Below, piece by piece: positions 28,445 to 57,992 of a stretch of 57,992 nucleotides of DNA (its first letter is position 1; every line of letters begins with the position of its first letter). The position numbers and the translations under genes were made by a program. This DNA is from an uncultured bacterium (GTDB lineage: Bacteria; UBP6; UBA1177), in NCBI GenBank assembly GCA_905235605.1, contig CAJOMF010000012.1, forward strand, positions 1 to 57,992, read 5' to 3'. The notes beneath the pieces were generated by a model. The model searched no databases. It was not told the DNA's origin and saw only the letters and a list, made by a program, of their open reading frames with translations.

Positions 28445-29834
28445 AGGCATCCTCTCATCCAAAAAACTCATTGTTTTTATCGCAATTATTGTTCTGTTGA
28501 TTGCCATCCTGCCTGGTCAGATCACTAATACAGTTCCCTTGGAAATATCGCTTCTCTTTTTTGTTATCGCGATGTTCAGTGTTATCGGAATAATTCGTGA
28601 ACTTGATTATGCTGCAGTAACTTTGAACATGATTCACTGGATTTTTATGCTGATTTTCTTTTTTATTGCACCGCTTATACAGACTTCTTTCGGATTCTCA
28701 GCATGGGGATTTAACTCCATGGATAACGATAATGTTACCAAAAGTTGTCTGGCAATTATTTTATGGATTGTTGTCTACTCTTTAAGCGGCATTCTTATTG
28801 GAAAAAAAATTCATCTGACAGGGGGCGAGCAGAGAGAAAAAATATCATCCGGCTGGCTTTATATTTTCACATTTCTCAGCCTTGTTTGCGGAATCACGAT
28901 TGTTGCAAGATATGGTTTTTTTAATCTGTTTTCGCGTGCTGATTTGAAAGCTGGAGAGGATGCTTTTGAGATGTCAAAAGCTGTCGGATTGATTTGGGCA
29001 AAGTGTTCAAGAGCAACGATAGTTTTCACTGAAGTGTTGCTGGTTATGACACTTATAAAAAAAGAAATTAATGTGAGCAAGCTTTTGACTATTAATACTA
29101 TTGTTTTAATACTTTCGTGTTTTCCTTTTGCTTTATCTAGAAACGAAGCCGGTATTATTTATCTTGGACTTTTTGTGGTATTTTTCTATCGTGATTTAGA
29201 AAAATTCAGACAGAAACCTTGGTATATTTTCTGCTTTTTGGGAGCGACACTTGTAGTTTTCCCCGTTTTGAATGTTTTTAGAAAAATGAGTCTGTATGAT
29301 AAAAATCTTTTTTCTATAATTTATAGTATGTTTACTAATTTGCCAATGGAATATCTGTCAGCAAATTATGACGCTTTTTCAATGATTGAGGGTGTTAGAA
29401 ATTATACCGAAATTGCTGATTTTACGTATGGTTATCAGCTTTTGGGTGCAATCTTTTTCTTTGTTCCAAGAAGCATCTGGGGAAGCAAACCAATTGGTTC
29501 CGGAGCTATGATATCACAATTTCAAGGTCAGCAGTTTTCAAATATTTCATGTCCGCTTATTGGAGAAGGTTATATCAATTTTGGGATTTTCGGAGTAGTT
29601 TTGTTTGCATTTGTTTTCGGTGTTCTGAATACTGTTTTTGACAGAAAATATTGGGAGAATGCTACAAGTCAGAATTTTAGTTTTATAAAAATTATTTATC
29701 CTTTTCTTCCCCCCTGTTTTTTCTTCATGCTGCGAGGAGATTTGATGTCGAGTTTGGCATATACATTGGCGTATGTGTTTATATTTTGGTTTTTGTTTAA
29801 AATAAGCAAATGGCATGTTAGGTTAAAACAATAA
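28434..29834 (+). CDS. wzy: Wzy O-antigen/polysaccharide polymerase
   Basis: AT-rich multi-TM protein with FFVPRSIW..KP, GEGYINFG and FFMLRGDL motifs. Confidence 0.8.
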   Translation: MENKGILSSKKLIVFIAIIVLLIAILPGQITNTVPLEISLLFFVIAMFSVIGIIRELDYAAVTLNMIHWIFMLIFFFIAPLIQTSFGFSAWGFNSMDNDNVTKSCLAIILWIVVYSLSGILIGKKIHLTGGEQREKISSGWLYIFTFLSLVCGITIVARYGFFNLFSRADLKAGEDAFEMSKAVGLIWAKCSRATIVFTEVLLVMTLIKKEINVSKLLTINTIVLILSCFPFALSRNEAGIIYLGLFVVFFYRDLEKFRQKPWYIFCFLGATLVVFPVLNVFRKMSLYDKNLFSIIYSMFTNLPMEYLSANYDAFSMIEGVRNYTEIADFTYGYQLLGAIFFFVPRSIWGSKPIGSGAMISQFQGQQFSNISCPLIGEGYINFGIFGVVLFAFVFGVLNTVFDRKYWENATSQNFSFIKIIYPFLPPCFFFMLRGDLMSSLAYTLAYVFIFWFLFKISKWHVRLKQ

Positions 29835-32497: not shown

Positions 32498-32721
32498 TGG
32501 TGAGTATATCCTGCAACACATACAACCACGAAAAATATATTGCGGATCCTCTGGAAAATCAGAATTTTAGTTCCATAAAAGTGATCTATCCTTTTCTTCC
32601 GCCGTGTTTTTTCTTTATGCTATGTGGAGATTTGATGTCAAGCTTGGCATATACATTGGCGTATGTGCTTATGTTTTGGTTTAAAATCAGCAGATGGCAT
32701 GTCAAGGTAAATCAAAGTTAA
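32485..32721 (+). pseudogene. Chimeric remnant: GT2 5' end fused to a second copy of the wzy 3' end
   Basis: MVSISCNTYNHEKYIAD is a GT2-type N-terminus; 32559-32702 matches wzy 29669-29818 (IYPFLPPCFFFML.GDLMSSLAYTLAYV). Confidence 0.88.
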
Positions 32722-36679: not shown

Positions 36680-37705
36680 ATGAATTTTAAGCGCGACATT
36701 CTTGTTTTAACACAACGTGATTTGATGGATTCCGGCTGTTTTGATTTTAAAGCCGCAATTGAAGTGATCGAAAAAACATTGGTCGATTTTTCTAAAGGCA
36801 GAATAATTTTCCCCGATAAAGTTTCTGTCGTTTTTAATGAGTCCACTCAGGATAGAATAAATTGTCTGCCTGGTGGTCTCATAGATGAAAAAATCTACGG
36901 AATGAAATGGGTGTCGGTTTTTCCGGAAAATCCTTATTTGAAAAATCTGCCTAATTTAAGTGCTGTTATTTTGCTTTCGGAATTAGAAAACGGATTTCCT
37001 GTTGCTTTTATGGAAGGAACTCTCTGTTCAAATATGAGAACTGCTTCAATGAGTGCTATAGGTGCCAAATATCTGGCTAATCCGAATCCGCAGACTATAG
37101 GTTTTATCGGCACTGGCGAACAAGCTAAATCACACTTTCTTGCAATGAAAAATGTGTTTCCGTCGATTCGTATATGTAAAATATCGGCTAACAGCGAAGC
37201 AAGTGAAGAATTGTTTATTGCACAAATGAAAAAGTTCCATCCAGATGTGGAATTTACAGCTTATCACGAGAATTATAAAGATGCTGCAACGGATGCAGAT
37301 ATCATTGTCACTGCGATCAGCGGACAAGAACCTATTTTGAAGGCGGCATGGATCAAAAAAGGAGCTTTTTACTGTCATGTTGCCGGTTATGAAGATGAGT
37401 TCAAGGTCGCACAAAAAGCAGATAAAATCGTTTGCGATGACTGGAATGTAGTAAAACACAGAACTCAAACAATCAGCAGAATGTATAAACAAGGATTGCT
37501 GAAAGACGAAGATATTCACGCCAATTTATACGAGATTGTAACCGGACATAAGCCTGGACGCGAAAATGCAGATGAATTTATATATTATAACGGTGTCGGA
37601 TTGTCCTACATCGATGTTGCGCTTGCGACCTGGATGTACAAAAAAGCCAAAGCAAAAGGTTGTGGTCAGGTAATTACAATGCAGGACAAATCAATGTTCG
37701 ATTGA
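36680..37705 (+). CDS. Ornithine cyclodeaminase/mu-crystallin-family imine reductase
   Basis: GMKWVSVFPEN, MRTA, GFIGTGEQA, ADIIVTA and G.KPGREN..E...Y..VG....D motifs. Confidence 0.88.
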   Translation: MNFKRDILVLTQRDLMDSGCFDFKAAIEVIEKTLVDFSKGRIIFPDKVSVVFNESTQDRINCLPGGLIDEKIYGMKWVSVFPENPYLKNLPNLSAVILLSELENGFPVAFMEGTLCSNMRTASMSAIGAKYLANPNPQTIGFIGTGEQAKSHFLAMKNVFPSIRICKISANSEASEELFIAQMKKFHPDVEFTAYHENYKDAATDADIIVTAISGQEPILKAAWIKKGAFYCHVAGYEDEFKVAQKADKIVCDDWNVVKHRTQTISRMYKQGLLKDEDIHANLYEIVTGHKPGRENADEFIYYNGVGLSYIDVALATWMYKKAKAKGCGQVITMQDKSMFD

Positions 37706-37793
37706 TGCCTCAAATCATTTTCTTATATTCCCCCAAACTATCCACCCAATCTCCAACACACCGAATCTAAACGAGGTTCCAGCACCAGATTCT

Positions 37794-37954
37794 TGCCGCT
37801 TTATGCGATAGGTTGCGTTATCGCGATATTTACGGTCTGCACTTTAATCGACATTCTGAGAATAAACTGTCTGGAAAAGCCTTTCTTCAGGTTGCTTCGA
37901 CAGGCTCAGCAACCGGTGCCGCCGCAGGATTAGGGTGTATAGGGTGTTTAGGGA
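37794..37954 (+). pseudogene. Orphan copy of the acyltransferase 3' end and trailer (direct repeat of 56106-56266)
   Basis: ~160 bp near-identical to 56106-56266, including the GGTTGC-ttcgacaggctca-GCAACC hairpin and ttaggg repeats. Confidence 0.92.
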
Positions 37955-37971
37955 GCGGCGGAGGGAATGAT

Positions 37972-38043
37972 TCTACCGATTCAAGCCTCCCCTGAAGTAG
38001 GGGAGGTGCCGTAAAACGGCGGAGAGGTCTGAAACGTCTCTAC
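37972..38043. repeat. REP-like hairpin element, inverted relative of 23132-23214
   Basis: CCTCCCCT-gaagt-AGGGGAGG...GAGAGGTC followed by CGTCTCTAC. Confidence 0.7.
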
Positions 38044-38164
38044 GAATCAATGAATGAAAAATTTAAAATTCGGTTAAAATAAAAATCTAAAAATAATTTG
38101 ACTTTCATTTATTCTTTGGATATGTTTCTTTTTCAGTGATCATTTTGAGGAATGGGGGCGGCAT

Positions 38165-38941
38165 ATGAATAAAGACCTGACTGCTTCAAGGATAGATCGG
38201 CAGAATATTTTGAATAATGAAATGGCTATTGAAGAAATTCAAGATAAGTCCGGTATCGTTGGAATTGAGTGGGACGGCAAGACTTATCTGACAAAGGAAG
38301 CTGTTGCATCGTTTTTTGAGGTGGATATCAGAACGATTAGCCGATATATTGAACAGAATAATAATGAGTTGACAGAAAACGGATACGTTGTTCTTCGAGG
38401 AAAGCAATTGAAGAGTTTTCTTGCTACAGCTTCAGAATACTATGCTAAGGACATTAATGTCCCTAGCAAAATTAGTCAGCTGGGTCTTTTTGATTTCAAA
38501 GTATTTCTAAATATGGCGATGCTTTTGTCTGAAAGTGAAAAAGCCAGGGCTTTACGGCAACTTATGCTGGATATTGTTATTGATTTGATAAATCGGCGGA
38601 CTGGCGGAGGTACAAAATATATTAATCAGCGCGATAAAGATTTTATCGGGTCGTATTTGCAGGAAGAAAACTATAGAAGAGAATTTACGGATGCTCTTAA
38701 ACAATGCGTCGCAGAAGATCGTTACAAATACGCACATTTTACAGATATGATTTATGTGAGTATTTTTAAAGAAAAAGCACGTGAATATAAAAAGATACTT
38801 GATCTCAAAGCAAGTGAGAAGGTGAGAGATACTTTCTATAGTGAAATCCTTGATATTATTGCTGCGTATGAAAGCGGATTGGCAGATGCTATAAAGTCAG
38901 ATGAAGAATTGAAATTGGCAATTATTAAAGCAATTCAATAA
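38165..38941 (+). CDS. Putative DNA-binding protein (ORF6N/KilA-N-like N-terminus), possibly C-terminally truncated
   Basis: LTKEAVASFFEVDIRTISRY HTH-like segment, GY.VLRGK.LK.F and AMLL.ESE.A..LR motifs resemble ORF6N-type antirepressor domains. Confidence 0.65.
   Translation: MNKDLTASRIDRQNILNNEMAIEEIQDKSGIVGIEWDGKTYLTKEAVASFFEVDIRTISRYIEQNNNELTENGYVVLRGKQLKSFLATASEYYAKDINVPSKISQLGLFDFKVFLNMAMLLSESEKARALRQLMLDIVIDLINRRTGGGTKYINQRDKDFIGSYLQEENYRREFTDALKQCVAEDRYKYAHFTDMIYVSIFKEKAREYKKILDLKASEKVRDTFYSEILDIIAAYESGLADAIKSDEELKLAIIKAIQ
38443..38468. repeat. Intragenic palindrome, 13-bp arms with 1 mismatch; second copy at 57289
   Basis: TGCTAAGGACATT|AATGTCCCTAGCA, encoding AKDINVPS. Confidence 0.95.
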
Positions 38942-38959
38942 ATAACGTTTTTAACCTTT

Positions 38960-38988
38960 TTCGCATTTCCTAAAAAAATCAGTATAAT
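38960..38988 (+). promoter_or_regulatory. Promoter of vioA copy 1
   Basis: TTCGCA-17 bp-TATAAT; TCGCATTTCCTAAAAAAATCAGTATAATG is repeated at 57324-57352. Confidence 0.7.
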
Positions 38989-39014
38989 GGGGCGGTTTTT
39001 TGAAGGAGAGCACC

Positions 39015-40124
39015 ATGACCATAAACGTTACCCGTTCCTCGATGCCGGGTTTTGAAGAGTATTGCGAGGAGATAAAAGAGCTTTGGGAGAGCCGCTGGCT
39101 TACGAATTCAGGGGCAAAGCACCAGAAATTTCAGGCTGAGCTTGAAAAAATGCTGGGAGTGCCGCATGTTGTGCTTTTTACGAACGGGCATCTGGCGCTT
39201 GAAAACATAATTGCGGCGTTCGGATTTCCGAAAGGGGCTGAAGTCATTACGACTCCTTTCACTTTCGCTTCGACGACTCATGCTATCGTGCGGAACGACC
39301 TTACTCCTGTTTTCTGCGATGTGAATCCTGAAAATTACACGATCGATGCTGATAAGATCGAGGCTCTGATAACCGAAAAAACGGTTGCGATAGTGCCTGT
39401 TCATGTTTACGGGAACATGTGCGATGTCGAAAAAATCGCCGGTATCGCGAAAAAGCACAACTTGAAGGTGATTTACGATGCGGCTCACGCTTTCGCGGTG
39501 AAATACAAAGGCATTAGTTCGGCTTGTTTCGGTGATGCTTCGATGTTCAGTTTCCATGCGACCAAGGTTTTCAACACGATCGAAGGGGGCGCGGTCTGTT
39601 TTTCGGACGATCCGCTTGTGGACAAACTTAACAGCATGAAAAATTTCGGCATAACGAGCCCTGAAAGTGTCGGATTTGTCGGCGGGAATGCGAAAATGAG
39701 CGAGTTTCAGGCGGCGATGGGGATTTGCAACCTGCGTCATCTTGAAGGGGAAATCGCAAAACGGAAAGCTGTAGTAGAACGCTACTTTAGTCATCTTGAC
39801 GGAGTGAAAGGGATAAAACTTTGCAAAACTGATAAGGACGTCACGCCGAATTATGCTTATTTCCCGGTCGTTTTCGACGGTTTCGGAGCAACGAGAGACG
39901 AAATCTTCGCAAAACTCGGGGAAAACGGCATTATGGCGAGGAAATATTTCTATCCGCTGACGAATTCGTTCGAGTGTTACCGTGATTTTCCGACTGCCGG
40001 CAGCGAAAAAACGCCGGTCGCCGCATACTTTGCCGACAGGGTGCTGACACTTCCGCTTTATGCAGATCTTGCGTTGGAAGATGTCGATAAAATTTGTGAG
40101 ATAATTTTGAACTGCAGGAGATAA
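39015..40124 (+). CDS. vioA: DegT-family aminotransferase, VioA-like (dTDP-4-amino-4,6-dideoxyglucose)
   Basis: TTPFTFASTTHA, PVHVYG, YDAAHAF, SFHATKVFNTIEGG, NAKMSEFQAAMG and RKYFYP motifs. Confidence 0.85.
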   Translation: MTINVTRSSMPGFEEYCEEIKELWESRWLTNSGAKHQKFQAELEKMLGVPHVVLFTNGHLALENIIAAFGFPKGAEVITTPFTFASTTHAIVRNDLTPVFCDVNPENYTIDADKIEALITEKTVAIVPVHVYGNMCDVEKIAGIAKKHNLKVIYDAAHAFAVKYKGISSACFGDASMFSFHATKVFNTIEGGAVCFSDDPLVDKLNSMKNFGITSPESVGFVGGNAKMSEFQAAMGICNLRHLEGEIAKRKAVVERYFSHLDGVKGIKLCKTDKDVTPNYAYFPVVFDGFGATRDEIFAKLGENGIMARKYFYPLTNSFECYRDFPTAGSEKTPVAAYFADRVLTLPLYADLALEDVDKICEIILNCRR

Positions 40125-40126
40125 AA

Positions 40127-40327
40127 ATGAAAGGAATAATTCTTGCCGGCGGCAAAGGAACAAGGCTTTACCCGATTGTTCAAAAGGATGACGACGGTTA
40201 TTCCTCTTTGTCTGCACTTTCTGATTTTAAAGTGCGTTCAGATGCTTCGTTCGAAAAAGATTACCTTTCCGGAGTCTACGGCGGAATACCCATGCTGAAA
40301 GAATTTTCAATGAAAGCAGGGGAGTGA
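40127..40327 (+). pseudogene. rmlA: Chimeric remnant: rmlA 5' end fused to an RloA-like ATPase 3' end
   Basis: MKGIILAGGKGTRLYP is the RmlA N-terminus; VQKD..G.S.L.ALSDF...FEKDYL.G.YGGIP matches the C-terminus typical of the AAA ATPases that precede RloB. Confidence 0.85.
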
Positions 40328-40328
40328 A

Positions 40329-40997
40329 TTGAAGAAAGAAGATCTGTTTAAAAAGCGTCGCGAACCTCGCAAAAATAGAAGGTATGGCTTTAAAACTCCA
40401 AAGGCGAACTCTTACCTTATCGTGACGGAAGGAAAATGCACAGAACCGAATTATTTCAACGGATTAAAAAAAAGGATTCTAGATAATGTCGGCGGAAATG
40501 TAGAAGTTATAGATATTTCTGGAGAGGGTGCATCGACCCAAAAACTTATAGAGATCACAGATCAGCGTGTTAACCGAGCCAAAATTCCATATCAGAATAT
40601 TTGGGTAGTTTTTGACAAGGATGATTTTAAGGATTTTGATCAGGCGATCAGAGAAGGCGAAGACAGGGGATATAATGTCGCTTGGAGCAATCAGAGCTTT
40701 GAATATTGGATCTATCTGCATTTTGGATACAGCGATGCAGATCTGCATAGAGACCAATGGAATGCCAAGCTTGATGAGCTGTTTAAATCTAAAGGGCTTT
40801 CAAAATCAGGATATAAGAAAAATATCAATGACCTTTATGAGCTGCTGGATTCCTTCGGCGGTGTTCAGAAAGCAATAAACAATGCAAAAAATAGAATGAA
40901 GGAATTTAAATCTAAAAAATCTAAACCATCGGAATATGCTCCAGGAACAACCGTGCATATTCTTGTGGAAGAGTTGCGGGGTTATTTAGAGTATTAG
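40329..40997 (+). CDS. rloB: RloB-family protein
   Basis: IVTEG..TEPNYF, WVVFDKD, SNQSFEYW..LHF and P.T.VH.LVE motifs. Confidence 0.9.
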   Translation: MKKEDLFKKRREPRKNRRYGFKTPKANSYLIVTEGKCTEPNYFNGLKKRILDNVGGNVEVIDISGEGASTQKLIEITDQRVNRAKIPYQNIWVVFDKDDFKDFDQAIREGEDRGYNVAWSNQSFEYWIYLHFGYSDADLHRDQWNAKLDELFKSKGLSKSGYKKNINDLYELLDSFGGVQKAINNAKNRMKEFKSKKSKPSEYAPGTTVHILVEELRGYLEY

Positions 40998-41031
40998 GAG
41001 CGGTGGAAAGAAAACTGGATGAGTGAGGGGG

Positions 41032-43287
41032 ATGAAACTCGTATTTTCTTCGATAAAAAATGGGACAATATTTGAACCTGATTTTCAGAATTTGACTCCT
41101 GATGTGGGAACCATTGAGTTTAAGCATATGAACACGCCAGGCGGTATCGCTGTTGTGTATGCCCCTAATGGTACCGGGAAGAGCAGTTTTGCAAAAGTGT
41201 TAGAAAAAGAAACAGCGAATGATTTGTCATTCGTAGCAACAGACGATATTGGAGCAACTATCACATTTAATGCATTCCACATTATCCAAGACCAGATAAA
41301 TCGAAATGTTATTCCAGGAAAAGAAACTGATTACTTGATTGGGCAACAAATCAGAAGAGAATATGAACTGCGAAACAGAATAAATTCCGCTTTTGATACC
41401 GTCTATAAAAAGTTGCCTGGGAAATACAAGAGTGATTTTAAAGTTTCCAAGGTCGAAGACTATCTTCTTACACAGATAGGGACACTTCAAAATCTACCTT
41501 ATCCTACAGCGTTTAAATACATGAGGTGCATCATCAATATTCATTCACACGGAACAAATATCGATCAGGCAGAGTTTCTCTCTTTTATTCGAAATGACAA
41601 TAACAGGCCAAACTTGACTGAGCTGGACACAGACAAGAAAACATGGGTTATTGCTGATTGCAGTGGAAAATCCAAAATAGTAAAGCGAATTATCGGGCTT
41701 GATTGTAACAAGATTGTAGCAAATCAGGGGACAGCACAGATTGAAAGGCATGATGATGCAATTGGTATTTTAGAAAAATATCACTCTTTGGACTCCTGCA
41801 TAGTTTGTGATAATCATGATTTTAATGGAGACGACCTGTTAACCAGAAAGAAAGAAAATCGCAAACGTATTTACGATGGTTTGGATCAAAACACAAAAGA
41901 ATTGCTGGATAAGGTCATAAAGGACAGTAGCCTTGTTTCTTCTGACCCATTTGATATTAAACGTATTGTGAGCGAGTTTGTCTCTGGCGGAGAGGCAATA
42001 GAACTGCATGAGCTTCAAAGTAATCTGAAGATGTATGTTCATGCCATAGGCGATGAAATGATAAATGTTCTATTTCATTGCTTTGACGACACTTCTCTTT
42101 TCCAGGATTATGATGAGTATACAAAGCTTGTGTCTACACAGCCACAATTGGATTCAGAGGAACTTCTTTTCATAGAGGATGTTATCAACGAGAATATCGG
42201 TAAAGACATTACCATTGAGCGGGATCCTGACAGCAAAAACTATAAGCTGAAACTGGGCGATAAGGATCTGTTGGGAATTGACCGCAGCTCTATGGAGCTT
42301 AGCTCTGGAGAACAGAACTTCATATCACTAGCTTTCGAACTGTTGCTGGCACGGCACTCTAATAAGGAATATGTTGTACTAGATGATCCGATCTCAAGCT
42401 TTGATTCAGTGTATAAGAACAAGATAGCTTTTTGCATCATCAAATTCCTTGATAAAAAGAAGCAAATCGTACTTACTCACAATACCGATTTGATTCGACT
42501 CTTAAATGTGCAGCTTAGCAATTGTTTCAACCTATACATTCTCAACAATGTAGAAAATGGACGTAATGGTTTTATTCCTGTCAATGCGCAAGAAAAAGCC
42601 ATGCTGATAAACTTACATGAATTGGTGAAGTTCTTCCAGAATAAATGCAAACAACTTGCTCCGGCTATTAGAAATCGTAGACAATTCCTTATGGCTATGA
42701 TTCCCTTCATGCGTGGATATGCTCATGTGAGCTTGGATCTAGATGATGATTATGGAACGCTTTCAGATATCATGCATGGATATGGAAGCGGAAAAGTAGA
42801 TGTTGTTCCTATCTATAAGAAACTTTTCGGGTATGACTTCGGTGGAACAGAAAAAATCTCTGTTGATGATATATTGAATATAGATTGCACTGCGCTTGAT
42901 ATTCTTGATGGGACTAAATTCCCTTTGCTATCTGATACGCTCAAGCAGACTCTTATTTATTATCATCTTCGGATGAAAGTGGAAAAAGTGCTAGTTGATG
43001 CATTTAGAATCGATGCTCATGATATGGATACGCTTAATCAGATTATTCAGAGAGCGTTTCGAAGAGAACTTGACAATGATGAGCGGAACAGAAATCTGCG
43101 TGTGTTTTTTACAAGTCGGAAAACTCTTCTGAATGAGTTTAATCACTTTGAAGGCAACATGAATATCTTTCAGCCGGCTATAGATATTACTCAGGCTGCA
43201 CTTCAAAAGGAAATTGGTGATATAAAAAATAAGCTCGTCGAAGTTCAAACATTTGCTAATGGTACACAATGGCAGATCGCAAAATAA
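41032..43287 (+). CDS. ABC/SMC-type ATPase with zinc hook (AAA_13/RloC-like)
   Basis: YAPNGTGKSS Walker A, central CIVC, LSSGEQ signature, LDDPISSFD Walker B, LTHN; C-terminal RKTLLNEFNH resembles a HEPN motif. Confidence 0.75.
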   Translation: MKLVFSSIKNGTIFEPDFQNLTPDVGTIEFKHMNTPGGIAVVYAPNGTGKSSFAKVLEKETANDLSFVATDDIGATITFNAFHIIQDQINRNVIPGKETDYLIGQQIRREYELRNRINSAFDTVYKKLPGKYKSDFKVSKVEDYLLTQIGTLQNLPYPTAFKYMRCIINIHSHGTNIDQAEFLSFIRNDNNRPNLTELDTDKKTWVIADCSGKSKIVKRIIGLDCNKIVANQGTAQIERHDDAIGILEKYHSLDSCIVCDNHDFNGDDLLTRKKENRKRIYDGLDQNTKELLDKVIKDSSLVSSDPFDIKRIVSEFVSGGEAIELHELQSNLKMYVHAIGDEMINVLFHCFDDTSLFQDYDEYTKLVSTQPQLDSEELLFIEDVINENIGKDITIERDPDSKNYKLKLGDKDLLGIDRSSMELSSGEQNFISLAFELLLARHSNKEYVVLDDPISSFDSVYKNKIAFCIIKFLDKKKQIVLTHNTDLIRLLNVQLSNCFNLYILNNVENGRNGFIPVNAQEKAMLINLHELVKFFQNKCKQLAPAIRNRRQFLMAMIPFMRGYAHVSLDLDDDYGTLSDIMHGYGSGKVDVVPIYKKLFGYDFGGTEKISVDDILNIDCTALDILDGTKFPLLSDTLKQTLIYYHLRMKVEKVLVDAFRIDAHDMDTLNQIIQRAFRRELDNDERNRNLRVFFTSRKTLLNEFNHFEGNMNIFQPAIDITQAALQKEIGDIKNKLVEVQTFANGTQWQIAK

Positions 43288-43413
43288 AAAATGTAACGTG
43301 GAAGGAAGTGTAGGGGATTGTGAGGTAGATAATGAAAAAGTATGGATTCCTTTTTGGAGCAGGAGCAAAGGTCTCTGAAATATAGCTAACTTATATAATT
43401 TACGGGGGTAAAA

Positions 43414-43749
43414 ATGGGAAAACAGAAAATTGTGAAGGAAGAGAAAAATACGCCTGTATACACTACCGTCGCAACAATTACCAAAATTGAAAAAGACGGT
43501 GTCCGCATCAAGGGCTTTGGCAAATACCTTTATGAGGATTCCAACAAACAACAGTGGAATATTTTGGAAGGTAATGGAGATCCTAAATTGCTGCCAACGG
43601 ATAAACCTCAAATAATTGCTGATGCTTTGATTAAAGATTCTGTTGCTGTGCAGTTGCTTGCCTTGTCAATGTTCCACAAGAAACCACTGAAATTGACGAT
43701 CGAAGAAGAAGACAAAAAATATTCTATTACTGCTGTAGAGGTCGAGTAA
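43414..43749 (+). CDS. Small hypothetical protein coupled to the FRG gene
   Basis: GGGGG RBS-like sequence; TAATG stop/start overlap with the next gene. Confidence 0.65.
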   Translation: MGKQKIVKEEKNTPVYTTVATITKIEKDGVRIKGFGKYLYEDSNKQQWNILEGNGDPKLLPTDKPQIIADALIKDSVAVQLLALSMFHKKPLKLTIEEEDKKYSITAVEVE

Positions 43750-44687
43750 TGGCGGAATACCACGATATTTACTCTGTTGTCGATTACATCGAAGCGATAA
43801 AAAATTTTAAGCGTTACGGTGTTAATGGTTCACGCAGAGAAGATACCCGCCTGTATTATCGTGGTGAGCCGGCTGATTATGGAGAAACAGCTGGAACTCC
43901 TTCAATTGCTCGAGGCGAATGGTTGGAAGGCAACAACGAATCGACTTTGTTCCGGGAATGCGAGCGCCGATTGCCGCGTGAATTTGCCAACTGCAAGACG
44001 ACTTTCGAAAAATTGGTGCTTATGCAGCATTATCAAATCCGCACACGCTTGCTGGATGTGTCATTTGGACCTTTGCAGGCTCTGTTTTTCGCGCTTTATA
44101 TCGATCCAAAGAGCAAACAGGACGATTTTTGCGATAGTATAGTTCTGGTGTATGAAATCCCGGATGAAGCCATTTGTTCGTGGCATTCCGACAAGGTGAG
44201 CGTCATTTCAAACATCGCCGTTTACGCATACGATGATTTGGACATCTGGGATTTACCGTATAATGAAGAATCAACAAAGTTGTTCGATAAAAAGGATTCT
44301 TTTAATGAAAATGAAAAAATACAGCAATTAGTTCATGAAATCAGGGCCGAAAAACCCTATTTCATAAACAGGATCATAAAAAGTCACATGGAATCTATTT
44401 ACTGTGTGCATCCGTTACTGGATAACCCTCGTATCAGGGCGCAACAAGGGGCGCTCCTTCTGTTTGGAATGGATGGCGACAAGCATCACTTGGCGACGCT
44501 GGAATCAAACAAAGGTCCGAAAATCAGCATGGCTAAAATCCGCATTCCGCAAGGAGCCAAAACCCGCATCCGTGAAGAATTGGAACTGCTCAGCCAAACA
44601 GTAGACACTATCTATCCTGACTGGCAGGGCGTTTCCGATTATTTTGAACGTTTCTCCGGTAAAAAAGCAGAAGATTTTTATAAGTGA
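43749..44687 (+). CDS. FRG-domain protein
   Basis: YYRGE, MQHY..RTRLLD.S...L.ALFFA and NPRIRAQQG.FL-like motifs. Confidence 0.9.
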   Translation: MAEYHDIYSVVDYIEAIKNFKRYGVNGSRREDTRLYYRGEPADYGETAGTPSIARGEWLEGNNESTLFRECERRLPREFANCKTTFEKLVLMQHYQIRTRLLDVSFGPLQALFFALYIDPKSKQDDFCDSIVLVYEIPDEAICSWHSDKVSVISNIAVYAYDDLDIWDLPYNEESTKLFDKKDSFNENEKIQQLVHEIRAEKPYFINRIIKSHMESIYCVHPLLDNPRIRAQQGALLLFGMDGDKHHLATLESNKGPKISMAKIRIPQGAKTRIREELELLSQTVDTIYPDWQGVSDYFERFSGKKAEDFYK

Positions 44688-44809
44688 AAAAGAAACGAAC
44701 AGGTGGGTATTGGAAAACTTTTTGGAATTTTAGAATGCCTTGAAAAAATCGAATAATTCAATAAAATCCATATTCGCCTTATCGGCTCTTGTTACATGGA
44801 GGTGTTGAT

Positions 44810-45892
44810 ATGTTGGAAAATATTAAATTCCAAAATTTCAGAGGATTTAAAAGCCTGGATTTGTCCGGTCTTTCGCAAATTACATTGTTGGCCGGAAAGA
44901 ACAGTGCCGGAAAGAGTTCCGTTCTCGAAGGAATTTTTCTTATTATGGCATCTTCTTTACCGGATATTTTTGAAAAATTAAGAAAAATTCGTGGTTTGCC
45001 TGTTCCGCCTGATATAACGAAACTGTGGGAACCACTATTTTATCATTGCGATACATCAAAGCCAATCGAAATATCTGTGAACTATCAGGAAAAACATATA
45101 AATCTCAAATACGAGAGGGATGATGCTTTTTCAACTTTGGACACGAATCAAAATATTCTGAATACTTTTATTACATTTGGTAGTCCTGCAGCATCAGATT
45201 ACACCCTCCGTTATACTTTTTCTGTCGATGAAGTTACTCAAAACGGGCATATATTTCAGAATCCTGCGATAGGTCCTTACGGGGTGCTCGCGATGAATAA
45301 AAATAATAAAGTAAATCTTGCGGCTATTCCAAATACGCAAATTGTTAAATTTGTATCTGTTGAGAGAATGGATGATCTAGAACTTGCTGAATGGTTGGGA
45401 AAGCTTGAATTAAATAGAGAACGCAAACTGATAATTGAGGCTCTCCAAATAATTGATCCTGATATTATTGACATCAAGGCCATAGTTCAACAGAGATATA
45501 CTCAACTTTACCTTATGACAAAAAGCTCATCTCTTCCTTTAAAACTGGCCGGAGACGGTATGTGCAAGCTTCTATATTTTGTGTTAAGTGTTTTAAGCAA
45601 CCCGAATTCGATCGTCTTGATAGATGAGATAGAAAATGGTTTCCATTATTCCATACAAGAGTCCCTGTGGGAAAAACTCGCAGAAGCTGCAAAAAGGAGC
45701 AATACACAAATTATTGCTACAACTCATAGTTATGAATGTATACAAAACGCGGTGGCAGGGATTGCCAAAGCTGGAATGTCTGAAAACTTTAGTCTTCACC
45801 GGATTGACAAAATAGGTGAAGAGAGCCGTGCAACCCGCTATTCAGGAGAACTTGTAAAATATGCAGTAGATTCCTTGATGGAGGTGCGGTAA
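44810..45892 (+). CDS. AAA_15/AAA_21 ABC-type ATPase
   Basis: NFRGF, GKNSAGKSS, GDG signature, LIDEIENGFH and TTHSYE motifs. Confidence 0.88.
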   Translation: MLENIKFQNFRGFKSLDLSGLSQITLLAGKNSAGKSSVLEGIFLIMASSLPDIFEKLRKIRGLPVPPDITKLWEPLFYHCDTSKPIEISVNYQEKHINLKYERDDAFSTLDTNQNILNTFITFGSPAASDYTLRYTFSVDEVTQNGHIFQNPAIGPYGVLAMNKNNKVNLAAIPNTQIVKFVSVERMDDLELAEWLGKLELNRERKLIIEALQIIDPDIIDIKAIVQQRYTQLYLMTKSSSLPLKLAGDGMCKLLYFVLSVLSNPNSIVLIDEIENGFHYSIQESLWEKLAEAAKRSNTQIIATTHSYECIQNAVAGIAKAGMSENFSLHRIDKIGEESRATRYSGELVKYAVDSLMEVR

Positions 45893-46557
45893 TGTCAGGC
45901 ACAGAAAACCGGTCTATTAAAAAAGGGATGCAGCACTTAATACTGTGTGAAGGAAAAGACGAGTGTTTGTTTATGATTTACTATCTAAACAGCCAAGCTT
46001 TGTCTTATAATAAGCAATACTCTGAAACTGTTCAGGTCGAAGATTTCGGTGGGAACGAAGATCTTTGCAATGCCCTGAAATCGTGGTCAAATGATCCTAA
46101 CTTCCTTGAACTGAAGTCGCTTGTTGTTGTTCGTGATGCAGAAAAGAATGCTCAGGCTGCTGTTGACAGTATCATAAATGCTTTTAAAAATGCCGATTTG
46201 CCGGTTCCTCCACGTTCTAATGAATTTAAAACGGGAAATGGCTTGAAGACAGGTTTTTTCCTGTTTCCAAAATGTTCTTCCGAACCTGTCAATGGAACTC
46301 TTGAAGATTTATGTTTTTCTATTTTAATGGAAAAAGAAGCTCCTATAAGTGAAATTGAAACTTTTCTTTCAGACTTGCAAACGCATAAAAACAGAACTTT
46401 TCCCCGTCCTTTTAAGACAAAACTGCACACATATTTTTCTATTACTGATAAATTCGTGTCGTTAAAGATCGGAGAAGCTGCTAAAGCAGGTGCCTTTGAT
46501 TGGAGTAGTCCTGAACTTGAGCCGATAAGGATTTTCTTGGACGAAATGTTGCAGTAG
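45892..46557 (+). CDS. DUF3226-like TOPRIM-fold partner of the ATPase
   Basis: LCEGKDE, GG, VRDAE and GTLEDLC motifs; TAATG overlap with the ATPase gene. Confidence 0.78.
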   Translation: MSGTENRSIKKGMQHLILCEGKDECLFMIYYLNSQALSYNKQYSETVQVEDFGGNEDLCNALKSWSNDPNFLELKSLVVVRDAEKNAQAAVDSIINAFKNADLPVPPRSNEFKTGNGLKTGFFLFPKCSSEPVNGTLEDLCFSILMEKEAPISEIETFLSDLQTHKNRTFPRPFKTKLHTYFSITDKFVSLKIGEAAKAGAFDWSSPELEPIRIFLDEMLQ

Positions 46558-55150: not shown

Positions 55151-56245
55151 ATGTCAAATACACCAAGTTTAAACGAAGTCACCCCGAAACAACGTGACTC
55201 TAATCTTGAGTTGATGCGCATAATCGCAATGCTTCTCATAGTCGCTCACCATTATGTTGTCAATTCAGGTCTGACTCTTCCAGAAGGGCCGATTTTTGCC
55301 GATCCGATGTCAAAACGCTCGCTGTTCCTGCTTGTTTTCGGCGCATGGGGAAAAATCGGGATAAACTGCTTTATGATGATAACCGGATATTTCATGTGCA
55401 AATCGAATATAACAGTGAAGAAATTCGCGAAGCTGTTCTTGGAAATCTTATTTTATAATATTGTGATATATCTCATTTTTCTGCTTAGCGGATACGCACC
55501 TTTTGCTTGGACTTCTTGCATAAAAGCATTGATTCCTATTACAAGTATCAACCAGAATTTTACCTCATGCTTTATTGTGTTTTTCCTCTTTATCCCTTTT
55601 CTCAACAAACTTGTGCAGAACCTGAATGAAAAACAGCATTTGGCATTGATCGGGCTCTGTTCTTTCACTTACATTCTTTTCGGGACACTGCATCGTGTCT
55701 CGATGAACTATGTTTCGTGGTTCATAGTGCTTTATTTTATATCTTCATACATCAGGCTTTATCCGAAAAAATGGTTCTCAAACAATAAAATCTGCGGTAC
55801 CTTGCTGTTTCTGTCGCTTGCAGCTGGTATTGCAAGCATAGTCGGCTGTGCATGGGTCGGAACAAAGATAAACAGATTCTCTCCTTTCTTTTTTGTCAGC
55901 GATTCCAATACTTTTCTTGCTGTGGCAATAGGAGTCAGCGCGTTCATGTTTTTTAAAAACCTCCGTATTCCTTACAGCAGATTCATCAACACTGTCGCCG
56001 CTTCGACATTCGGGGTGCTTTTGATACATGCATCCGGTGATACGATGAGACAGTGGCTTTGGAAGGATGTCGTCGATTGCGTTGGTCATTATGGCGACAA
56101 ATATCTGCCGCTTTATGCGATAGGTTGCGTTCTCGCGATATTTACGGTCTGCACTTTAATCGACATTCTGAGAATAAACTGTCTGGAAAAGCCCTTCTTC
56201 AGGTTGCTTCGACAGGCTCAGCAACCTGCGCCGCAGCAGAATTAG
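55151..56245 (+). CDS. Acyltransferase-3 family membrane O-acyltransferase
   Basis: RDSNLELMRIIAM..IV.HH, F..ITGYF and TFGV.LIH motifs; ~10 TM helices. Confidence 0.9.
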   Translation: MSNTPSLNEVTPKQRDSNLELMRIIAMLLIVAHHYVVNSGLTLPEGPIFADPMSKRSLFLLVFGAWGKIGINCFMMITGYFMCKSNITVKKFAKLFLEILFYNIVIYLIFLLSGYAPFAWTSCIKALIPITSINQNFTSCFIVFFLFIPFLNKLVQNLNEKQHLALIGLCSFTYILFGTLHRVSMNYVSWFIVLYFISSYIRLYPKKWFSNNKICGTLLFLSLAAGIASIVGCAWVGTKINRFSPFFFVSDSNTFLAVAIGVSAFMFFKNLRIPYSRFINTVAASTFGVLLIHASGDTMRQWLWKDVVDCVGHYGDKYLPLYAIGCVLAIFTVCTLIDILRINCLEKPFFRLLRQAQQPAPQQN

Positions 56246-56269
56246 GGAGTTTAGGGATTTTAGGGAAAA

Positions 56270-57184
56270 TCACAGATTCCGCATGATTTCGGGAATCCAG
56301 GATGGATCCAAGATTTCGAAAGCGAAGCACTGTTTGGCGAGATCTTTGAGCGACGCTCCGATGTGGTAAAGAATTTTGTTGTCGATAATCAAAAAGCGGT
56401 CGTGGATTTTTTCCGTGTGTTTTAGCTCAAGTATCGGATATTGTTCGTTAAATTTTTGAACGTCGAGAGGTGTTATTTTTGTTTTTGGATAGGTGTAGAT
56501 TATGACTTTTACACCGCTTTTCTTCTTGGCGAAGCGCTCCAGAACCGTAAGATCGACATAATTGTCGATTAGAACAATTTCTTTTTCAGCCTCGGCGATA
56601 AATGACTCGAATTTTGCGTAGGCATCGAAAATCTGCCCTTGGAAAAAGAGCCCCTGTTTGTCTTCGATTTTGTATCTGTCCATTTTGTCGAAAAGTTCAT
56701 CGATTTTTTTGCCGTGTTCCAATAAGTGAATCTCGCTGGTTGTCTGCCGTTTTTCCATAAAGTCGAGTCTTTGAAAAATTTGGGAGTTTGTCTGAACAAA
56801 CCGGCGCAAAGCGACAAAGGCTTCTATAATCATTATACTTGTCAGCACTGCTGTATCGCTTTTAAGAACGGAAGCCAGCATTGCCACTCCCTGTTCCGTA
56901 AAGGCGTAAGGCAGATATTGGCGGCCGCCCCTGGTTTCTGTTTTTGAGGTCGCAATTTGCGACCTCAAAAATTCAAATTCACTTTCATTGAGTTGAAACA
57001 TGAAATTTGAGGGGAATCTTTCAATATTTCTACGCACTTGTTCATTCAACCTTTTTGTCTCCACCCCGTAAAGTTTTGCCAAGTCTCGGTCGAGCATCAC
57101 CTGCTGCCCTCGAATAACCAAGATTTTACTTTCAATATCTGCTTTTATTTGATTGTCGCTACTTATTACAATTTTATTTGTCAT
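56270..57184 (-). CDS. ORF6N-domain DNA-binding protein with C-terminal PLD-like domain
   Basis: IRGQQVMLDRDLAKLYGVETKRLNEQVRRN.ERFP, PYAFTEQGVAML, LIDNY and HDRFLIID...YH.GASLKD motifs. Confidence 0.92.
   Translation of the reverse strand: MTNKIVISSDNQIKADIESKILVIRGQQVMLDRDLAKLYGVETKRLNEQVRRNIERFPSNFMFQLNESEFEFLRSQIATSKTETRGGRQYLPYAFTEQGVAMLASVLKSDTAVLTSIMIIEAFVALRRFVQTNSQIFQRLDFMEKRQTTSEIHLLEHGKKIDELFDKMDRYKIEDKQGLFFQGQIFDAYAKFESFIAEAEKEIVLIDNYVDLTVLERFAKKKSGVKVIIYTYPKTKITPLDVQKFNEQYPILELKHTEKIHDRFLIIDNKILYHIGASLKDLAKQCFAFEILDPSWIPEIMRNL
56941..56971. repeat. Perfect intragenic palindrome, 15-bp arms
   Basis: TTTTTGAGGTCGCAA-T-TTGCGACCTCAAAAA, encoding FLRSQIATSK on the minus strand. Confidence 0.95.
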
Positions 57185-57288
57185 GTTCTTCTCTCGATAA
57201 ACAGATAAGTGCAATGCTTGAATAATAATATCAAAATATTTGTCAATAAAAATTTTATTTAAAATATAAGTTTTAGATTATTGATTTC

Positions 57289-57314
57289 TGCTAAGGACAT
57301 TAATGTCCCTAACA
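57289..57314. promoter_or_regulatory. Intergenic copy of the 38443 palindrome, candidate operator
   Basis: TGCTAAGGACATTAATGTCCCTA identical over 23 bp to 38443-38465; ends about 8 bp upstream of the vioA-2 -35 box. Confidence 0.6.
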
Positions 57315-57322
57315 AAAAACAT

Positions 57323-57351
57323 CTCGCATTTCCTAAAAAAATCAGTATAAT
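57323..57351 (+). promoter_or_regulatory. Promoter of vioA copy 2
   Basis: CTCGCA-17 bp-TATAAT, same core as 38960-38988. Confidence 0.65.
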
Positions 57352-57377
57352 GCGGCGGTTTTTTTAGGAGAGACGCC

Positions 57378-57992
57378 ATGACAATAAACGTTACCCGTTC
57401 CTCAATGCCCGGTTTTGAGGAATATTGCTCAGAAATAAAGGAGTTGTGGGAGAGCCGCTGGCTTACCAATTCGGGTGCGAAGCATCAGCAGTTTCAGGCG
57501 GAGCTTGAAAAGTTTCTCGGCGTGCCGCATGTAGCGCTCTACACGAACGGACATCTGGCGCTCGAAAATGTCATCGCGGCTATGCAATTTGAAAAAGGCT
57601 CGGAAGTTATTACGACACCGTTTACCTTTGCTTCGACGACTCATGCGATAGTCAGAAACGGCCTGGTTCCGGTTTTCTGCGATGTGAATCCTGACAATTA
57701 CACGATCGATGCTGATAAGATCGAGGCTCTGATCACAGACAAAACTGTTGCGATAGTTCCGGTGCATGTTTACGGAAATATGTGCGATGTCGAGCATATC
57801 GCGGATATTGCTAAAAAACACGGTCTGAAAGTCATTTACGATGCGGCGCATGCTTTCGCGGTGAAATACAAAGGCGTTAGCTCGGCTTGTTTTGGTGATG
57901 CTTCGATGTTCAGTTTCCATGCGACCAAGGTTTTCAACACGATCGAAGGGGGCGCGGTCTGTTTTTCGGACGATCCGCTTGTGGACAAACTT
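57378..57992 (+). CDS. vioA: Second VioA-like aminotransferase, 3'-partial (missing from the ORF track)
   Basis: AGGAG RBS; ATG ACA ATA AAC GTT (MTINVTRSSMPG); colinear with 39015 onward and open to the window end. Confidence 0.9.
   Translation, partial: MTINVTRSSMPGFEEYCSEIKELWESRWLTNSGAKHQQFQAELEKFLGVPHVALYTNGHLALENVIAAMQFEKGSEVITTPFTFASTTHAIVRNGLVPVFCDVNPDNYTIDADKIEALITDKTVAIVPVHVYGNMCDVEHIADIAKKHGLKVIYDAAHAFAVKYKGVSSACFGDASMFSFHATKVFNTIEGGAVCFSDDPLVDKL

What the first reader, a model, noticed from the sequence alone, without database searches (positions are those of the whole stretch)
57289..57351. The intragenic palindrome of the 38165 gene reappears alone at the vioA-2 / ORF6N divergent promoter
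Seen: TGCTAAGGACATTAATGTCCCTA (23 bp identical, flanks unrelated) lies inside the DNA-binding gene in slot 1 and intergenically in slot 2, just upstream of the vioA-2 -35 box and between it and the divergent ORF6N gene. Only the palindrome is shared, which suggests it works as a DNA site independently of coding. Inference, alternatives: (a) it is the operator through which the slot-1 protein controls the module-2 promoter or ORF6N, a cassette cross-regulation switch; (b) it is a footprint left when such a gene is lost or replaced; (c) it is the target site these genes insert at or capture. This is the best evidence in the window for an undescribed system.
Basis: partly seen in the sequence, partly recalled or inferred. 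Interest (0 to 1): 0.85.

Follow-up and report, generated by a model that had tools for sequence, protein, structure and literature searches.

The report
Orphan copy of a coding palindrome
The lone palindrome before the second sugar-aminotransferase gene is most likely the last remnant of a lost DNA-binding-protein/Doc toxin gene pair, and that palindrome proves to be a conserved DNA element built into the coding sequence of a large group of such genes.

Summary
The 23-mer is exact at 38443-38465 and 57289-57311 (29 nt, one mismatch), 0 of 100 shuffles match, and the genome has no third copy.

The 38165 gene is a deletion derivative of a two-gene module. 'A' is a 339-aa DNA-binding protein; Doc is a Fic/DOC toxin. 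A relative (G022) has the module intact in front of the same promoter; G011 has another decayed form.

Slot 2 keeps only the palindrome, so reading (b), a footprint, fits best. A 99%-identical twin locus lies in a genome without any A gene. Another relative has the same junction without the palindrome.

The flanks keep no gene remnant, and lone, exactly trimmed copies recur elsewhere. So it is not an ordinary pseudogene scar.

The larger result is that A genes keep a palindrome at this codon position through compensatory changes: 64 sequences, 87.8% paired against 33-47% in slid controls. ORF6N and RhuM genes do the same. My searches found no description of it.

A working cross-regulation switch is not supported, but not excluded.

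The parts
57289..57317 (.). Orphan palindrome: 23 nt exact, 29 nt with one mismatch (G->A at 57312) relative to the copy inside the 38165 gene
   Evidence: ssDNA fold only -3.4 kcal/mol, z -1.4
38443..38471 (+). Intragenic palindrome of the truncated A gene (codons YAKDINVPSK), in the loop that follows helix 79-92 of the N-terminal domain
   Evidence: ssDNA fold -7.6 kcal/mol, z -3.7; loop 93-104 in the model
38165..38896 (+). A-derived part of the 38165 ORF: codons 1-244 of a 339-codon 'DNA-binding protein' gene
   Evidence: 99% identical to G022 over aa 1-246 within a 360-aa open frame; compared by eye with L004
38897..38941 (+). Last 14 codons and the stop of the Doc (Fic/DOC) gene, fused in frame to A by an internal deletion
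   Evidence: Same 3' end as Doc in L004:2524-2961; Doc is Pfam Fic 2.3e-11
38961..39015 (+). Promoter unit of slot 1 (28-nt conserved core with TATAAT) and leader of the first aminotransferase gene
   Evidence: (D1)
57324..57377 (+). Promoter unit of slot 2 (same 28-nt core, TATAAT at 57346-57351) and leader of the second aminotransferase gene
   Evidence: (D1); not called by the simple scan
57378..57992 (+). Second DegT/DnrJ/EryC1 aminotransferase gene ('vioA-2'), cut by the contig end
   Evidence: family by likeness to 39015-40124 (Pfam 6e-96)
56270..57184 (-). ORF6N-domain gene, divergent from the promoter; with its upstream region to about 57288 it forms a unit shared with G019 and G021
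56941..56971 (.). A separate 31-nt perfect palindrome inside the ORF6N gene (codons FLRSQIATSK), the counterpart in that family of the A palindrome
56106..56266 (+). 3' end of the acyltransferase gene 55151-56245; left conserved flank of slot 2
   Evidence: D2, 94% to 37794-37954; Pfam Acyl_transf_3
37794..37954 (+). Relic of the same acyltransferase 3' end; left conserved flank of slot 1
   Evidence: D2
37983..38044 (+). GC-rich hairpin repeat upstream of the A gene; in G021 a copy of this repeat occupies the place of the orphan palindrome

Best explanation
The element at 57289-57317 is an orphaned copy of a palindrome that genes of the 'A' family carry inside their coding sequence. A is a 339-aa DNA-binding protein encoded just upstream of a Doc (Fic/DOC) toxin gene. 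In this genus an A-Doc pair sits directly before the conserved promoter of the aminotransferase gene. It is intact in G022, internally deleted in window slot 1 (A codons 1-244 fused to the last 14 Doc codons), and reduced to A codons 67-116 plus a Doc tail in G011. Slot 2 is the end of that series: everything is gone except the palindrome, and an ORF6N gene unit now lies on its other side. This is reading (b), a footprint. Shown: the synteny, the decay series, the absence of an A gene in the twin genome, and the family-wide constraint on the palindrome. Inferred: that slot 2 once held an A-Doc pair; that the trimming to exactly the palindrome reflects deletions stopping at a stable hairpin or retention of the element for its own sake; and that in this window the site is now probably inert. 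At family level the palindrome is most likely a DNA-level two-fold symmetric site, perhaps the binding site of the dimeric protein that the gene encodes. That step is inference.
For: Synteny: the 28-nt promoter core is preceded by A-Doc sequence in 3 of its 13 copies (G022, G011, window slot 1) and by the orphan palindrome in 2 (window slot 2, G019). Decay series: of the 64 sites in the 63 stretches that hold the 20-mer, 37 lie in A matches of 300 aa or more, 9 in shorter A matches, and 18 outside any A match. One of those 18 (L082) has the palindrome about 30 nt before a Doc C-terminal fragment with no A flank left. Absence of the protein: the slot-2 arrangement is 99% identical over 1138 nt in G019, a 99%-complete genome with no A match. 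Three other genomes with lone A-type palindromes also gave no A match (completeness not given). Dispensability: G021 has the same ORF6N unit and promoter with a GC-hairpin repeat in place of the palindrome. Signs of decay: the only difference from slot 1 (57312) breaks a stem pair, and the ssDNA fold is -3.4 kcal/mol (z -1.4), against -7.6 (z -3.7) for slot 1 and about -14 for perfect family members. Family constraint: on 64 distinct 48-mers centred by the protein alignment alone, 87.8% of cells pair against 33-47% when slid, 10 of 14 pairs change on both sides, and the covariation score is 0.385 against 0.108 in shuffles (0 of 500 as high). This is the only palindromic codon boundary of 339 (0.857; next 0.438; mean 0.263, sd 0.069).
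Against: No residual gene homology flanks the 29 nt. Two independent deletions ending exactly at the base of the palindrome are unlikely by chance. Lone copies trimmed in the same way recur: L085, L116, L117, L128, L132 and L133, and a second copy 54 nt before the A start codon in L099. This points to a non-random process: structure-guided deletion, selection on the element, or copying of the element. The last 5 nt of the 29-nt match (CAAAA) may belong to the promoter unit rather than to A. The site lies just upstream of the promoter and an A-derived ORF is still open in the same genome, so residual function is not excluded. The G019 twin is 99% identical, so it had no time to lose a useless site.
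Confidence: 0.6

Rival explanations
1. Working operator, the reader's (a): the truncated A protein of slot 1 binds the orphan palindrome and controls the vioA-2 promoter and/or the divergent ORF6N promoter.
For: The palindrome keeps two-fold symmetry across the family. There is no excess of G.U-type mismatches on the sense strand (A.C 44 against G.T 18 in A genes; 14 against 6 in ORF6N genes), which fits a DNA-level rather than a sense-RNA constraint. A is modelled as a homodimer: ipSAE score 0.50, best of 3 controls 0.01. That mark was reached by 20 of 30 proteins solved as pairs of one chain and by 1 of 23 solved as single chains. The runs agree in at least 84% of contacts and the partner pLDDT is at least 83. 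This is the model's confidence, not a measurement. In L099 a second, perfect copy lies just after an AT-rich -10-like stretch, 26 nt before the A start codon, an operator-like place. The window's site lies immediately upstream of the promoter unit.
Against: G019 carries the site and has no A gene. G021 has the same junction without the site. Only 2 of 13 promoter copies have it. The window's A protein lacks residues 245-339, which hold part of the modelled dimer interface (269-278, 306-312), and it has lost its Doc partner. Second sites are rare: none in 80 unbiased A loci covering 543,220 nt, and one of 46 A-bearing loci. The slot-2 substitution lowers the symmetry. Symmetry extends up to 15 bp per arm, with many alternative pairs among close relatives, which looks more like base pairing than protein read-out.
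Confidence: 0.15
2. Recombination or copying site, related to the reader's (c): the palindrome is a discrete DNA element that is copied or recombined on its own. It could act through a hairpin or cruciform, as an insertion target for units such as the ORF6N gene, or as a crossover point between slots.
For: Orphan copies are trimmed to the palindrome in several unrelated genomes. In L099 an orphan lies 332 nt from its parent gene with no other shared flank. In G021 a different hairpin repeat occupies the same position beside the ORF6N unit. Palindromes are their own inverted and direct repeats.
Against: There are only one or two copies per genome. No recombinase family appeared among the 22 ORFs of 35399-57214 that I scanned against Pfam. 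No contig in 4 runs from 4 studies joins 38443-38465 to 57289-57311, though contigs cannot exclude rare forms. No target-site duplication is visible. The L082 and G011 intermediates are explained by plain deletion.
Confidence: 0.15
3. Structure kept for a role independent of A: the remnant hairpin is retained as an insulator, pause site or RNA-end structure between the divergent ORF6N and aminotransferase promoters. It would be interchangeable with the GC hairpin repeat that G021 has there.
For: Two different hairpin-forming elements occupy the same junction in related genomes. Several orphans elsewhere lie just downstream of genes (L133 after hsdR, L116 and L098 after ORFs).
Against: The slot-2 hairpin is weak (z -1.4). 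No T-run follows it on either strand, and no terminator-like site was called. No expression data could be read: the RNA runs held only 5-6% of the words and are contigs.
Confidence: 0.07

Closest known systems
phd-doc type II toxin-antitoxin modules, and their relatives embedded in R-M loci (pneumococcal tvrAT)
   Same: A Doc/Fic-family gene lies directly downstream of a gene for a DNA-binding partner. The pair sits between the methylase/specificity genes and the restriction gene. tvrAT, phd-doc homologues between hsdM and hsdR, repress a neighbouring gene, and the authors note that P1 phd-doc is autoregulated through a palindromic operator (PMC6265443, passages read). Doc and RhuM-like genes in R-M operons are described in PMC3710099 (passages read).
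   Different: A is 339 aa, matches no Phd/YefM family and no Pfam family above cut-off. Its palindrome lies inside the coding sequence about 280 nt after the start, not in a promoter. In the window the Doc gene is gone except for 14 codons.
Intragenic auxiliary operators (lac O2 in lacZ, gal OI in galE; recalled, no call)
   Same: A symmetric protein-binding site embedded in a coding sequence. The L099 pair of sites 332 nt apart resembles a promoter-proximal plus intragenic operator pair.
   Different: Here binding is untested. The site lies in the regulator's own gene, is conserved at one codon position across whole gene families, and changes by paired substitutions over up to 15 bp per arm.
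Palindromic elements inside protein-coding genes: Rickettsia palindromic elements (recalled) and coding palindromes of Nematomorpha mitochondrial genes (PMC6649704, abstract in the search listing only)
   Same: Inverted repeats that overlap reading frames, so that both arms are translated; this is considered rare.
   Different: Those are multi-copy or lineage-specific insertions. This one is a single element at a homologous position, inherited with the gene family, with orphans at one or two copies per genome.
REP / RAYT-type extragenic palindromes (recalled, no call)
   Same: Short imperfect palindromes that exist as discrete units in intergenic DNA.
   Different: REPs occur in tens to hundreds of copies and have a dedicated transposase. 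Here there are 2 copies in the genome and no such gene was seen.
Pseudogene footprint after gene loss
   Same: Position syntenic with an intact gene in relatives, and intermediate decay forms exist.
   Different: No flanking gene remnant survives. The remnant coincides exactly with a structured element.

Membership tests
Footprint (relic) of a lost gene | Lies where relatives have the intact gene | tested here: met
   An A-Doc pair lies directly before the same promoter in G022. Decayed forms lie there in slot 1 and G011.
Footprint (relic) of a lost gene | Flanks retain degraded homology to the gene | tested here: not met
   Only the 29-nt match is significant. The other matches are AT-rich words of 13 nt or less with E >= 0.05.
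Footprint (relic) of a lost gene | Intermediate stages of decay exist | tested here: met
   Nine of 64 sites lie in shortened A matches. L082 has the palindrome plus a Doc C-terminal fragment. G011 has A codons 67-116 plus a Doc tail.
Operator of the adjacent promoter | Two-fold symmetric sequence | tested here: met
   The 14-nt core is a perfect palindrome; 26 nt with 4 asymmetric positions in slot 2.
Operator of the adjacent promoter | Cognate binding protein encoded wherever the site is kept | tested here: not met
   G019 has the site and no A match. G038, G039 and G040 have lone A-type sites and no A match.
Operator of the adjacent promoter | Site accompanies the promoter in other copies | tested here: not met
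   Two of 13 promoter copies have it. G021 has the same junction without it.
Operator of the adjacent promoter | Protein binds the site | not testable with these tools
   Needs EMSA or DAP-seq. Only a modelled A homodimer is available: score 0.50, best control 0.01; the mark was reached by 20 of 30 proteins solved as pairs of one chain and by 1 of 23 solved as single chains; the runs agree in at least 84% of contacts and the partner pLDDT is at least 83.
Doc / Fic type II toxin-antitoxin module | Toxin gene with a Fic/DOC domain | tested here: not met
   In the window only the last 14 Doc codons remain. In G022 the gene is intact: Pfam Fic 2.3e-11, 44.8 bits against a cut-off of 24; TIGR01550 38.0 bits against a cut-off of 38.65.
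Doc / Fic type II toxin-antitoxin module | Upstream partner of the Phd/YefM antitoxin family | tested here: not met
   A has no Pfam or NCBIfam family above cut-off. There is a weak ORF6N hit (E 0.013) at aa 35-83.
Site-specific inversion or excision site | Recombinase gene nearby and alternative junctions in sequence data | tested here: inconclusive
   No recombinase family among the 22 ORFs scanned. No joint between the two copies in contigs of 4 runs; contigs drop rare forms.
Structured RNA family (Rfam) | Match to a curated covariance model | tested here: not met
   No match at E <= 1 for 37700-39100. For 56200-57992 only a sub-threshold rivX match over the ORF6N palindrome: 19.7 bits against a gathering score of 100.

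The most novel reading that the evidence does not exclude
The palindrome is one instance of an undescribed class of element: a two-fold symmetric DNA site written into the coding sequence of the N-terminal DNA-binding domain of A, ORF6N and RhuM genes, and recognised by the dimeric protein that the same codons help to encode. On this reading the operator travels with its regulator through horizontal transfer and domain shuffling. Orphan copies such as 57289-57317 would then be operator copies that wire other promoters, here vioA-2 and ORF6N, to that protein. The weaker core of this reading is that the coding palindrome is real, is under nucleic-acid-level constraint in all three families, and is not described in the literature I could search. 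I put that core at about 0.8.
Probability: 0.12. Interest if true: 0.9.

Novelty: new variant of a known kind. Interest (0 to 1): 0.7.

Why it matters
For this window the result removes a tempting story: there is no supported cassette cross-regulation switch. What remains is the trace of a lost A-Doc module at a spot where defence genes come and go inside a polysaccharide locus.

The wider point is the palindrome itself. Three related families of phage- and defence-linked DNA-binding genes (A, ORF6N, RhuM) keep a 10-15 bp stem at one fixed place in their reading frames by paired substitutions. Some of these couple a synonymous site to an amino-acid change.

That is an overlapping second code in very common genes, and my searches found no description of it.

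If it is a self-operator or a structure-forming DNA site, it would explain how R-M-linked Doc/RhuM modules are controlled. It would also explain why these genes break assemblies, and why exactly trimmed orphan hairpins turn up in intergenic DNA. It gives a concrete experiment: recode the stem synonymously, or break and restore its symmetry.

Tried and rejected
- The pairwise MAFFT alignment of the two slots misplaced the palindrome and was uninformative. It was replaced by a local comparison.
- Rfam gave nothing usable.
- A sequence-profile search of the PDB gave 0 hits. Foldseek gave only a weak match to DdrC of Deinococcus (E 1.8e-3, TM 0.28/0.41). I use it only as a hint that A binds DNA.
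- The simple promoter/terminator scan called neither the conserved promoter nor any terminator at the site.
- Searching A in 401 genomes of another order gave only 3 hits, so I turned to metagenome contigs.
- The scan for a second cognate palindrome in 80 A loci found none.
- Sequencing runs: all were Logan contigs.
- Contigs of X1, X2, X3 and X5 show the slot-2 arrangement in other samples and a G011-like deletion form. They show no joint between the two palindromes, which does not exclude rare recombinants.
- Strand asymmetry of mismatches (A.C against G.T) was tried as an RNA-versus-DNA test. It argues against a sense-RNA hairpin, but it is confounded by the A-rich coding strand and by shared ancestry.
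- I rejected chance.
- I rejected an assembly artefact, because the element is in frame in genes from isolates and from many independent assemblies.
- One search failed on a wrong frame and was repeated without that ORF. One search failed on a wrong handle type and was redone through handles.

Full report
**1. The observation**

The 23-mer of the finding is present without mismatch at 38443-38465 and 57289-57311. None of 100 dinucleotide-preserving shuffles of the window gave a match. The repeat finder extends the match to 29 nt with one difference (family D12).

A search of the whole assembly (2.67 Mb, 96.2% complete) for the 18-nt core with up to two mismatches finds only these two places. 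The window is the whole of contig C12, which ends at 57992 inside the second aminotransferase gene.

Copy 1 lies in ORF 38165-38941. Copy 2 lies between the ORF6N gene on the minus strand and the aminotransferase gene starting at 57378.

**2. The two 'slots'**

Both copies lie in a stretch of about 1 kb between conserved flanks:
- On the left is the 3' end of an acyltransferase gene (56106-56266). Its relic at 37794-37954 is 94% identical.
- On the right is a promoter-plus-aminotransferase block (38961-39260 and 57324-57623, 80% identical).

The 28-nt promoter core with a perfect TATAAT is identical in both slots. It recurs 13 times in 10 of 23 genomes of the family, before various genes. A simple sigma-70 scan does not call it because the -35 is poor, so 'promoter' rests on conservation.

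**3. What the 38165 gene is**

Its product has no Pfam family. It matches a PHROG 'transcriptional regulator' family at 3.5e-6.

In G022 the same position holds an intact two-gene module directly before the same promoter. The first gene, A, has 339 codons. It is followed after 3 nt by a 145-codon gene that is Fic/DOC (Pfam 2.3e-11; TIGR01550 at its cut-off).

The other forms are deletion derivatives:
- The window's ORF is A codons 1-244 fused in frame to the last 14 Doc codons.
- G011 has A codons 67-116, palindrome included, joined to the last third of Doc.
- A contig of run X5 shows that same form.

A belongs to a very large family: 6759 proteins at E <= 0.001 among the 8000 candidates scored. 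Where sources name them, the name is 'DNA-binding protein'.

I scanned the neighbours in 4 loci. In 3 the pair lies inside an R-M operon: hsdM-hsdS-A-Doc-hsdR in L141, and methylase-A-Doc-helicase/endonuclease in L206 and L217. Doc and RhuM-like genes in R-M operons are described in PMC3710099. A phd-doc pair inside the pneumococcal tvr locus is described in PMC6265443 (passages read in both).

**4. The slot-2 copy in relatives**

The whole slot-2 stretch (1138 nt) is 99% identical in G019. That genome is 99% complete and has no A match.

G021 has the same ORF6N unit (86% identical) and the same promoter. Between them it has a 73-nt GC-rich hairpin repeat instead of the palindrome. In slot 1 and G022 that repeat lies upstream of A.

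A local comparison of 57185-57330 with the intact A-Doc region gives only the 29-nt match. So the site lies where an A-Doc pair is expected, but nothing of the gene besides the palindrome is left.

**5. The palindrome in the A family**

A scan of one genome per species for the 20-mer (two degenerate positions) gave 63 stretches from many phyla. By my own arithmetic about 2 are expected by chance.

The 63 stretches hold 64 sites:
- 37 lie in A matches of at least 300 aa, down to 42-48% amino-acid identity.
- 9 lie in shorter A matches.
- 18 lie outside any A match.

Because that scan required the motif, I drew an unbiased sample. It consists of 80 A genes from metagenome contigs, found through peptide patterns that do not cover the palindrome. 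At the aligned codons the sequence differs widely but stays symmetric.

On 64 distinct 48-mers centred by the protein alignment alone:
- 87.8% of cells pair, against 33-47% when the partner is slid.
- 10 of 14 pairs show changes on both sides.
- The covariation score is 0.385, against 0.108 in shuffles (0 of 500 as high).

One search adds the following:
- Of 339 codon boundaries this is the only palindromic one (0.857; next 0.438; mean 0.263, sd 0.069).
- In 61 of 77 distinct genes the best 14-pair centre of the whole gene lies exactly here.
- The protein is more variable here than elsewhere (column entropy 1.82 against 1.10).

The model places these residues in a loop (93-104) of the N-terminal domain (mean pLDDT 73). 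Three genes (L188, L190, L191) lack the palindrome, and the G006 and G024 copies are degenerate.

**6. The same feature in ORF6N and RhuM genes**

The ORF6N gene of slot 2 carries its own 31-nt perfect palindrome at 56941-56971. Its paralogues in the genus and ORF6N genes from phage contigs keep a stem there with paired changes. On 44 distinct sequences, 87.3% of cells pair against 27-46% slid, 12 of 14 pairs change on both sides, and 0 of 500 shuffles are as high.

A RhuM gene of the same genome (Pfam 2.4e-23) has a stem at the equivalent place. So do all 28 distinct RhuM genes drawn from 151 genomes of another order. There, 86.2% of cells pair against 22-43% slid, and 13 of 14 pairs change on both sides.

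Two caveats and two further points:
- The ORF6N and RhuM windows were centred with a hairpin finder inside the homologous segment, so they lean towards the structure. The A windows were not.
- In these stems a synonymous position covaries with an amino-acid-changing one, for example Ser TCG/TCA with Ala GCG / Val GTG. A protein-level constraint does not explain that.
- In the window's genome, 14 of the 43 strongest hairpins (at least 11 perfect pairs) lie in ORF6N-like N-domains.
- A's N-terminal domain gives a weak ORF6N match (E 0.013). By eye, the residues after the palindrome resemble the ORF6N motif. That homology is a lead, not a test.

**7. What kind of constraint**

G.T-type mismatches are not enriched on the sense strand. 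In A genes there are 18 G.T against 44 A.C. In ORF6N genes there are 6 against 14. This argues against a sense-RNA hairpin and fits a DNA-level symmetry. The test is confounded by the A-rich coding strand and by shared ancestry.

A is modelled as a homodimer: score 0.50, best of 3 controls 0.01. That mark was reached by 20 of 30 proteins solved as pairs of one chain and by 1 of 23 solved as single chains. The runs agree in at least 84% of contacts, and the partner pLDDT is at least 83. This is model confidence only.

A dimer that reads a palindrome would keep both half-sites in step. But symmetry over up to 15 bp per arm, with many alternative pairs among close relatives, looks more like base pairing.

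My odds for the family-level element are:
- site of the gene's own dimeric product: 0.4
- structure-forming DNA with another role: 0.25
- RNA hairpin: 0.25
- non-adaptive homogenisation of the two arms: 0.1

**8. Orphans**

Of the 18 sites outside A matches:
- Nine look unrelated: a tandem repeat, a Paenibacillus repeat family, a Bacteroidia element, and sites inside or just after other ORFs.
- The other nine have A-type arms.
- One of these is L129, which shows the slot-2 junction itself.
- Another is L082, where the palindrome lies about 30 nt before a Doc C-terminal fragment.
- A third is L099, where a perfect copy lies 26 nt before the start codon of an intact A gene that also has its internal copy 332 nt away.
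- The other six (L085, L116, L117, L128, L132, L133) are intergenic and trimmed to the palindrome. The three of their genomes that I searched gave no A match.

Second copies are rare. There are none in the 80 unbiased loci and one among the 46 A-bearing loci.

**9. Verdict on the finding**

The position, the decay series, the twin locus without an A gene and the symmetry-breaking substitution make a footprint of a lost A-Doc pair the best reading (0.6).

The clean trimming and the recurrent orphans show that the palindrome behaves as a discrete element. It either outlives its gene or is copied without it, so rival readings keep some weight: operator 0.15, recombination or copy site 0.15, A-independent structure 0.07.

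No contig in four runs joins the two copies. No recombinase family was found among the 22 ORFs scanned in and around the interval.

**10. Literature**

- A search for 'ORF6N' returned 12 papers, none with the term in title or abstract.
- Searches combining RhuM or KilA-N with palindrome, hairpin or coding, and a search on intragenic palindromes, gave nothing on a coding palindrome in these genes. The passages I read do not mention it.
- Subscription journals and supplementary files were not searchable, so 'undescribed' is limited to these searches.

Noticed in passing
window 56941-56971: The ORF6N gene has its own 31-nt perfect palindrome inside the reading frame. ORF6N genes of the genus and of phage contigs keep a stem there by compensatory changes.
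   Followed up: yes
L299:1617-1641 (G000:C14:38616-38640): A RhuM-family gene of the same genome carries a stem at the equivalent codons. All 28 distinct RhuM genes sampled from another order do too.
   Followed up: partly
L299:1426-2265 and window 56270-57184: The RhuM-type protein on contig C14 and the window's ORF6N protein share a closely similar C-terminal half (from about FFQGQIFDAYAKFESFI to the end) behind different N-terminal domains. This looks like domain swapping. No Pfam family matches that half.
   Followed up: no
window 40127-46557: An island of defence-type genes sits inside the polysaccharide locus, right after the first aminotransferase gene. It holds a 66-codon rmlA-like fragment, RloB, an AAA_13 ATPase, an FRG-domain protein, and an AAA_15/AAA_21 ATPase with DUF3226.
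   Followed up: no
window 37983-38044; L027:2520-2592; L004:3010-3130: A GC-rich hairpin repeat (two stems) recurs around these promoters in the genus. It also lies between promoter and start codon in G021 and G022.
   Followed up: no
G000 contigs C15 (start), C48 and C60 (ends); window 56943-56977 in runs X2, X3, X5: Contigs end or break at ORF6N-type palindromes, so these elements appear to fragment short-read assemblies.
   Followed up: partly
L006 (G011) and L082: Two unrelated genomes carry deletions that join the region just after the A palindrome to about the same point in the last third of Doc. In G022 a 12-nt word is shared by both genes at the G011 junction.
   Followed up: partly
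window 13617-13676: A perfect tandem duplication of 30 nt (D11).
   Followed up: no
window 26034-26187 / 27324-27477 and 29666-29792 / 32556-32682: Two pairs of direct repeats (93% and 87% identical) among the sugar-modifying genes. They suggest duplicated gene starts or ends (D3, D4).
   Followed up: no
window 24472-24519: A short array of 12-nt units at the end of ORF 23231-24688 (D5).
   Followed up: no
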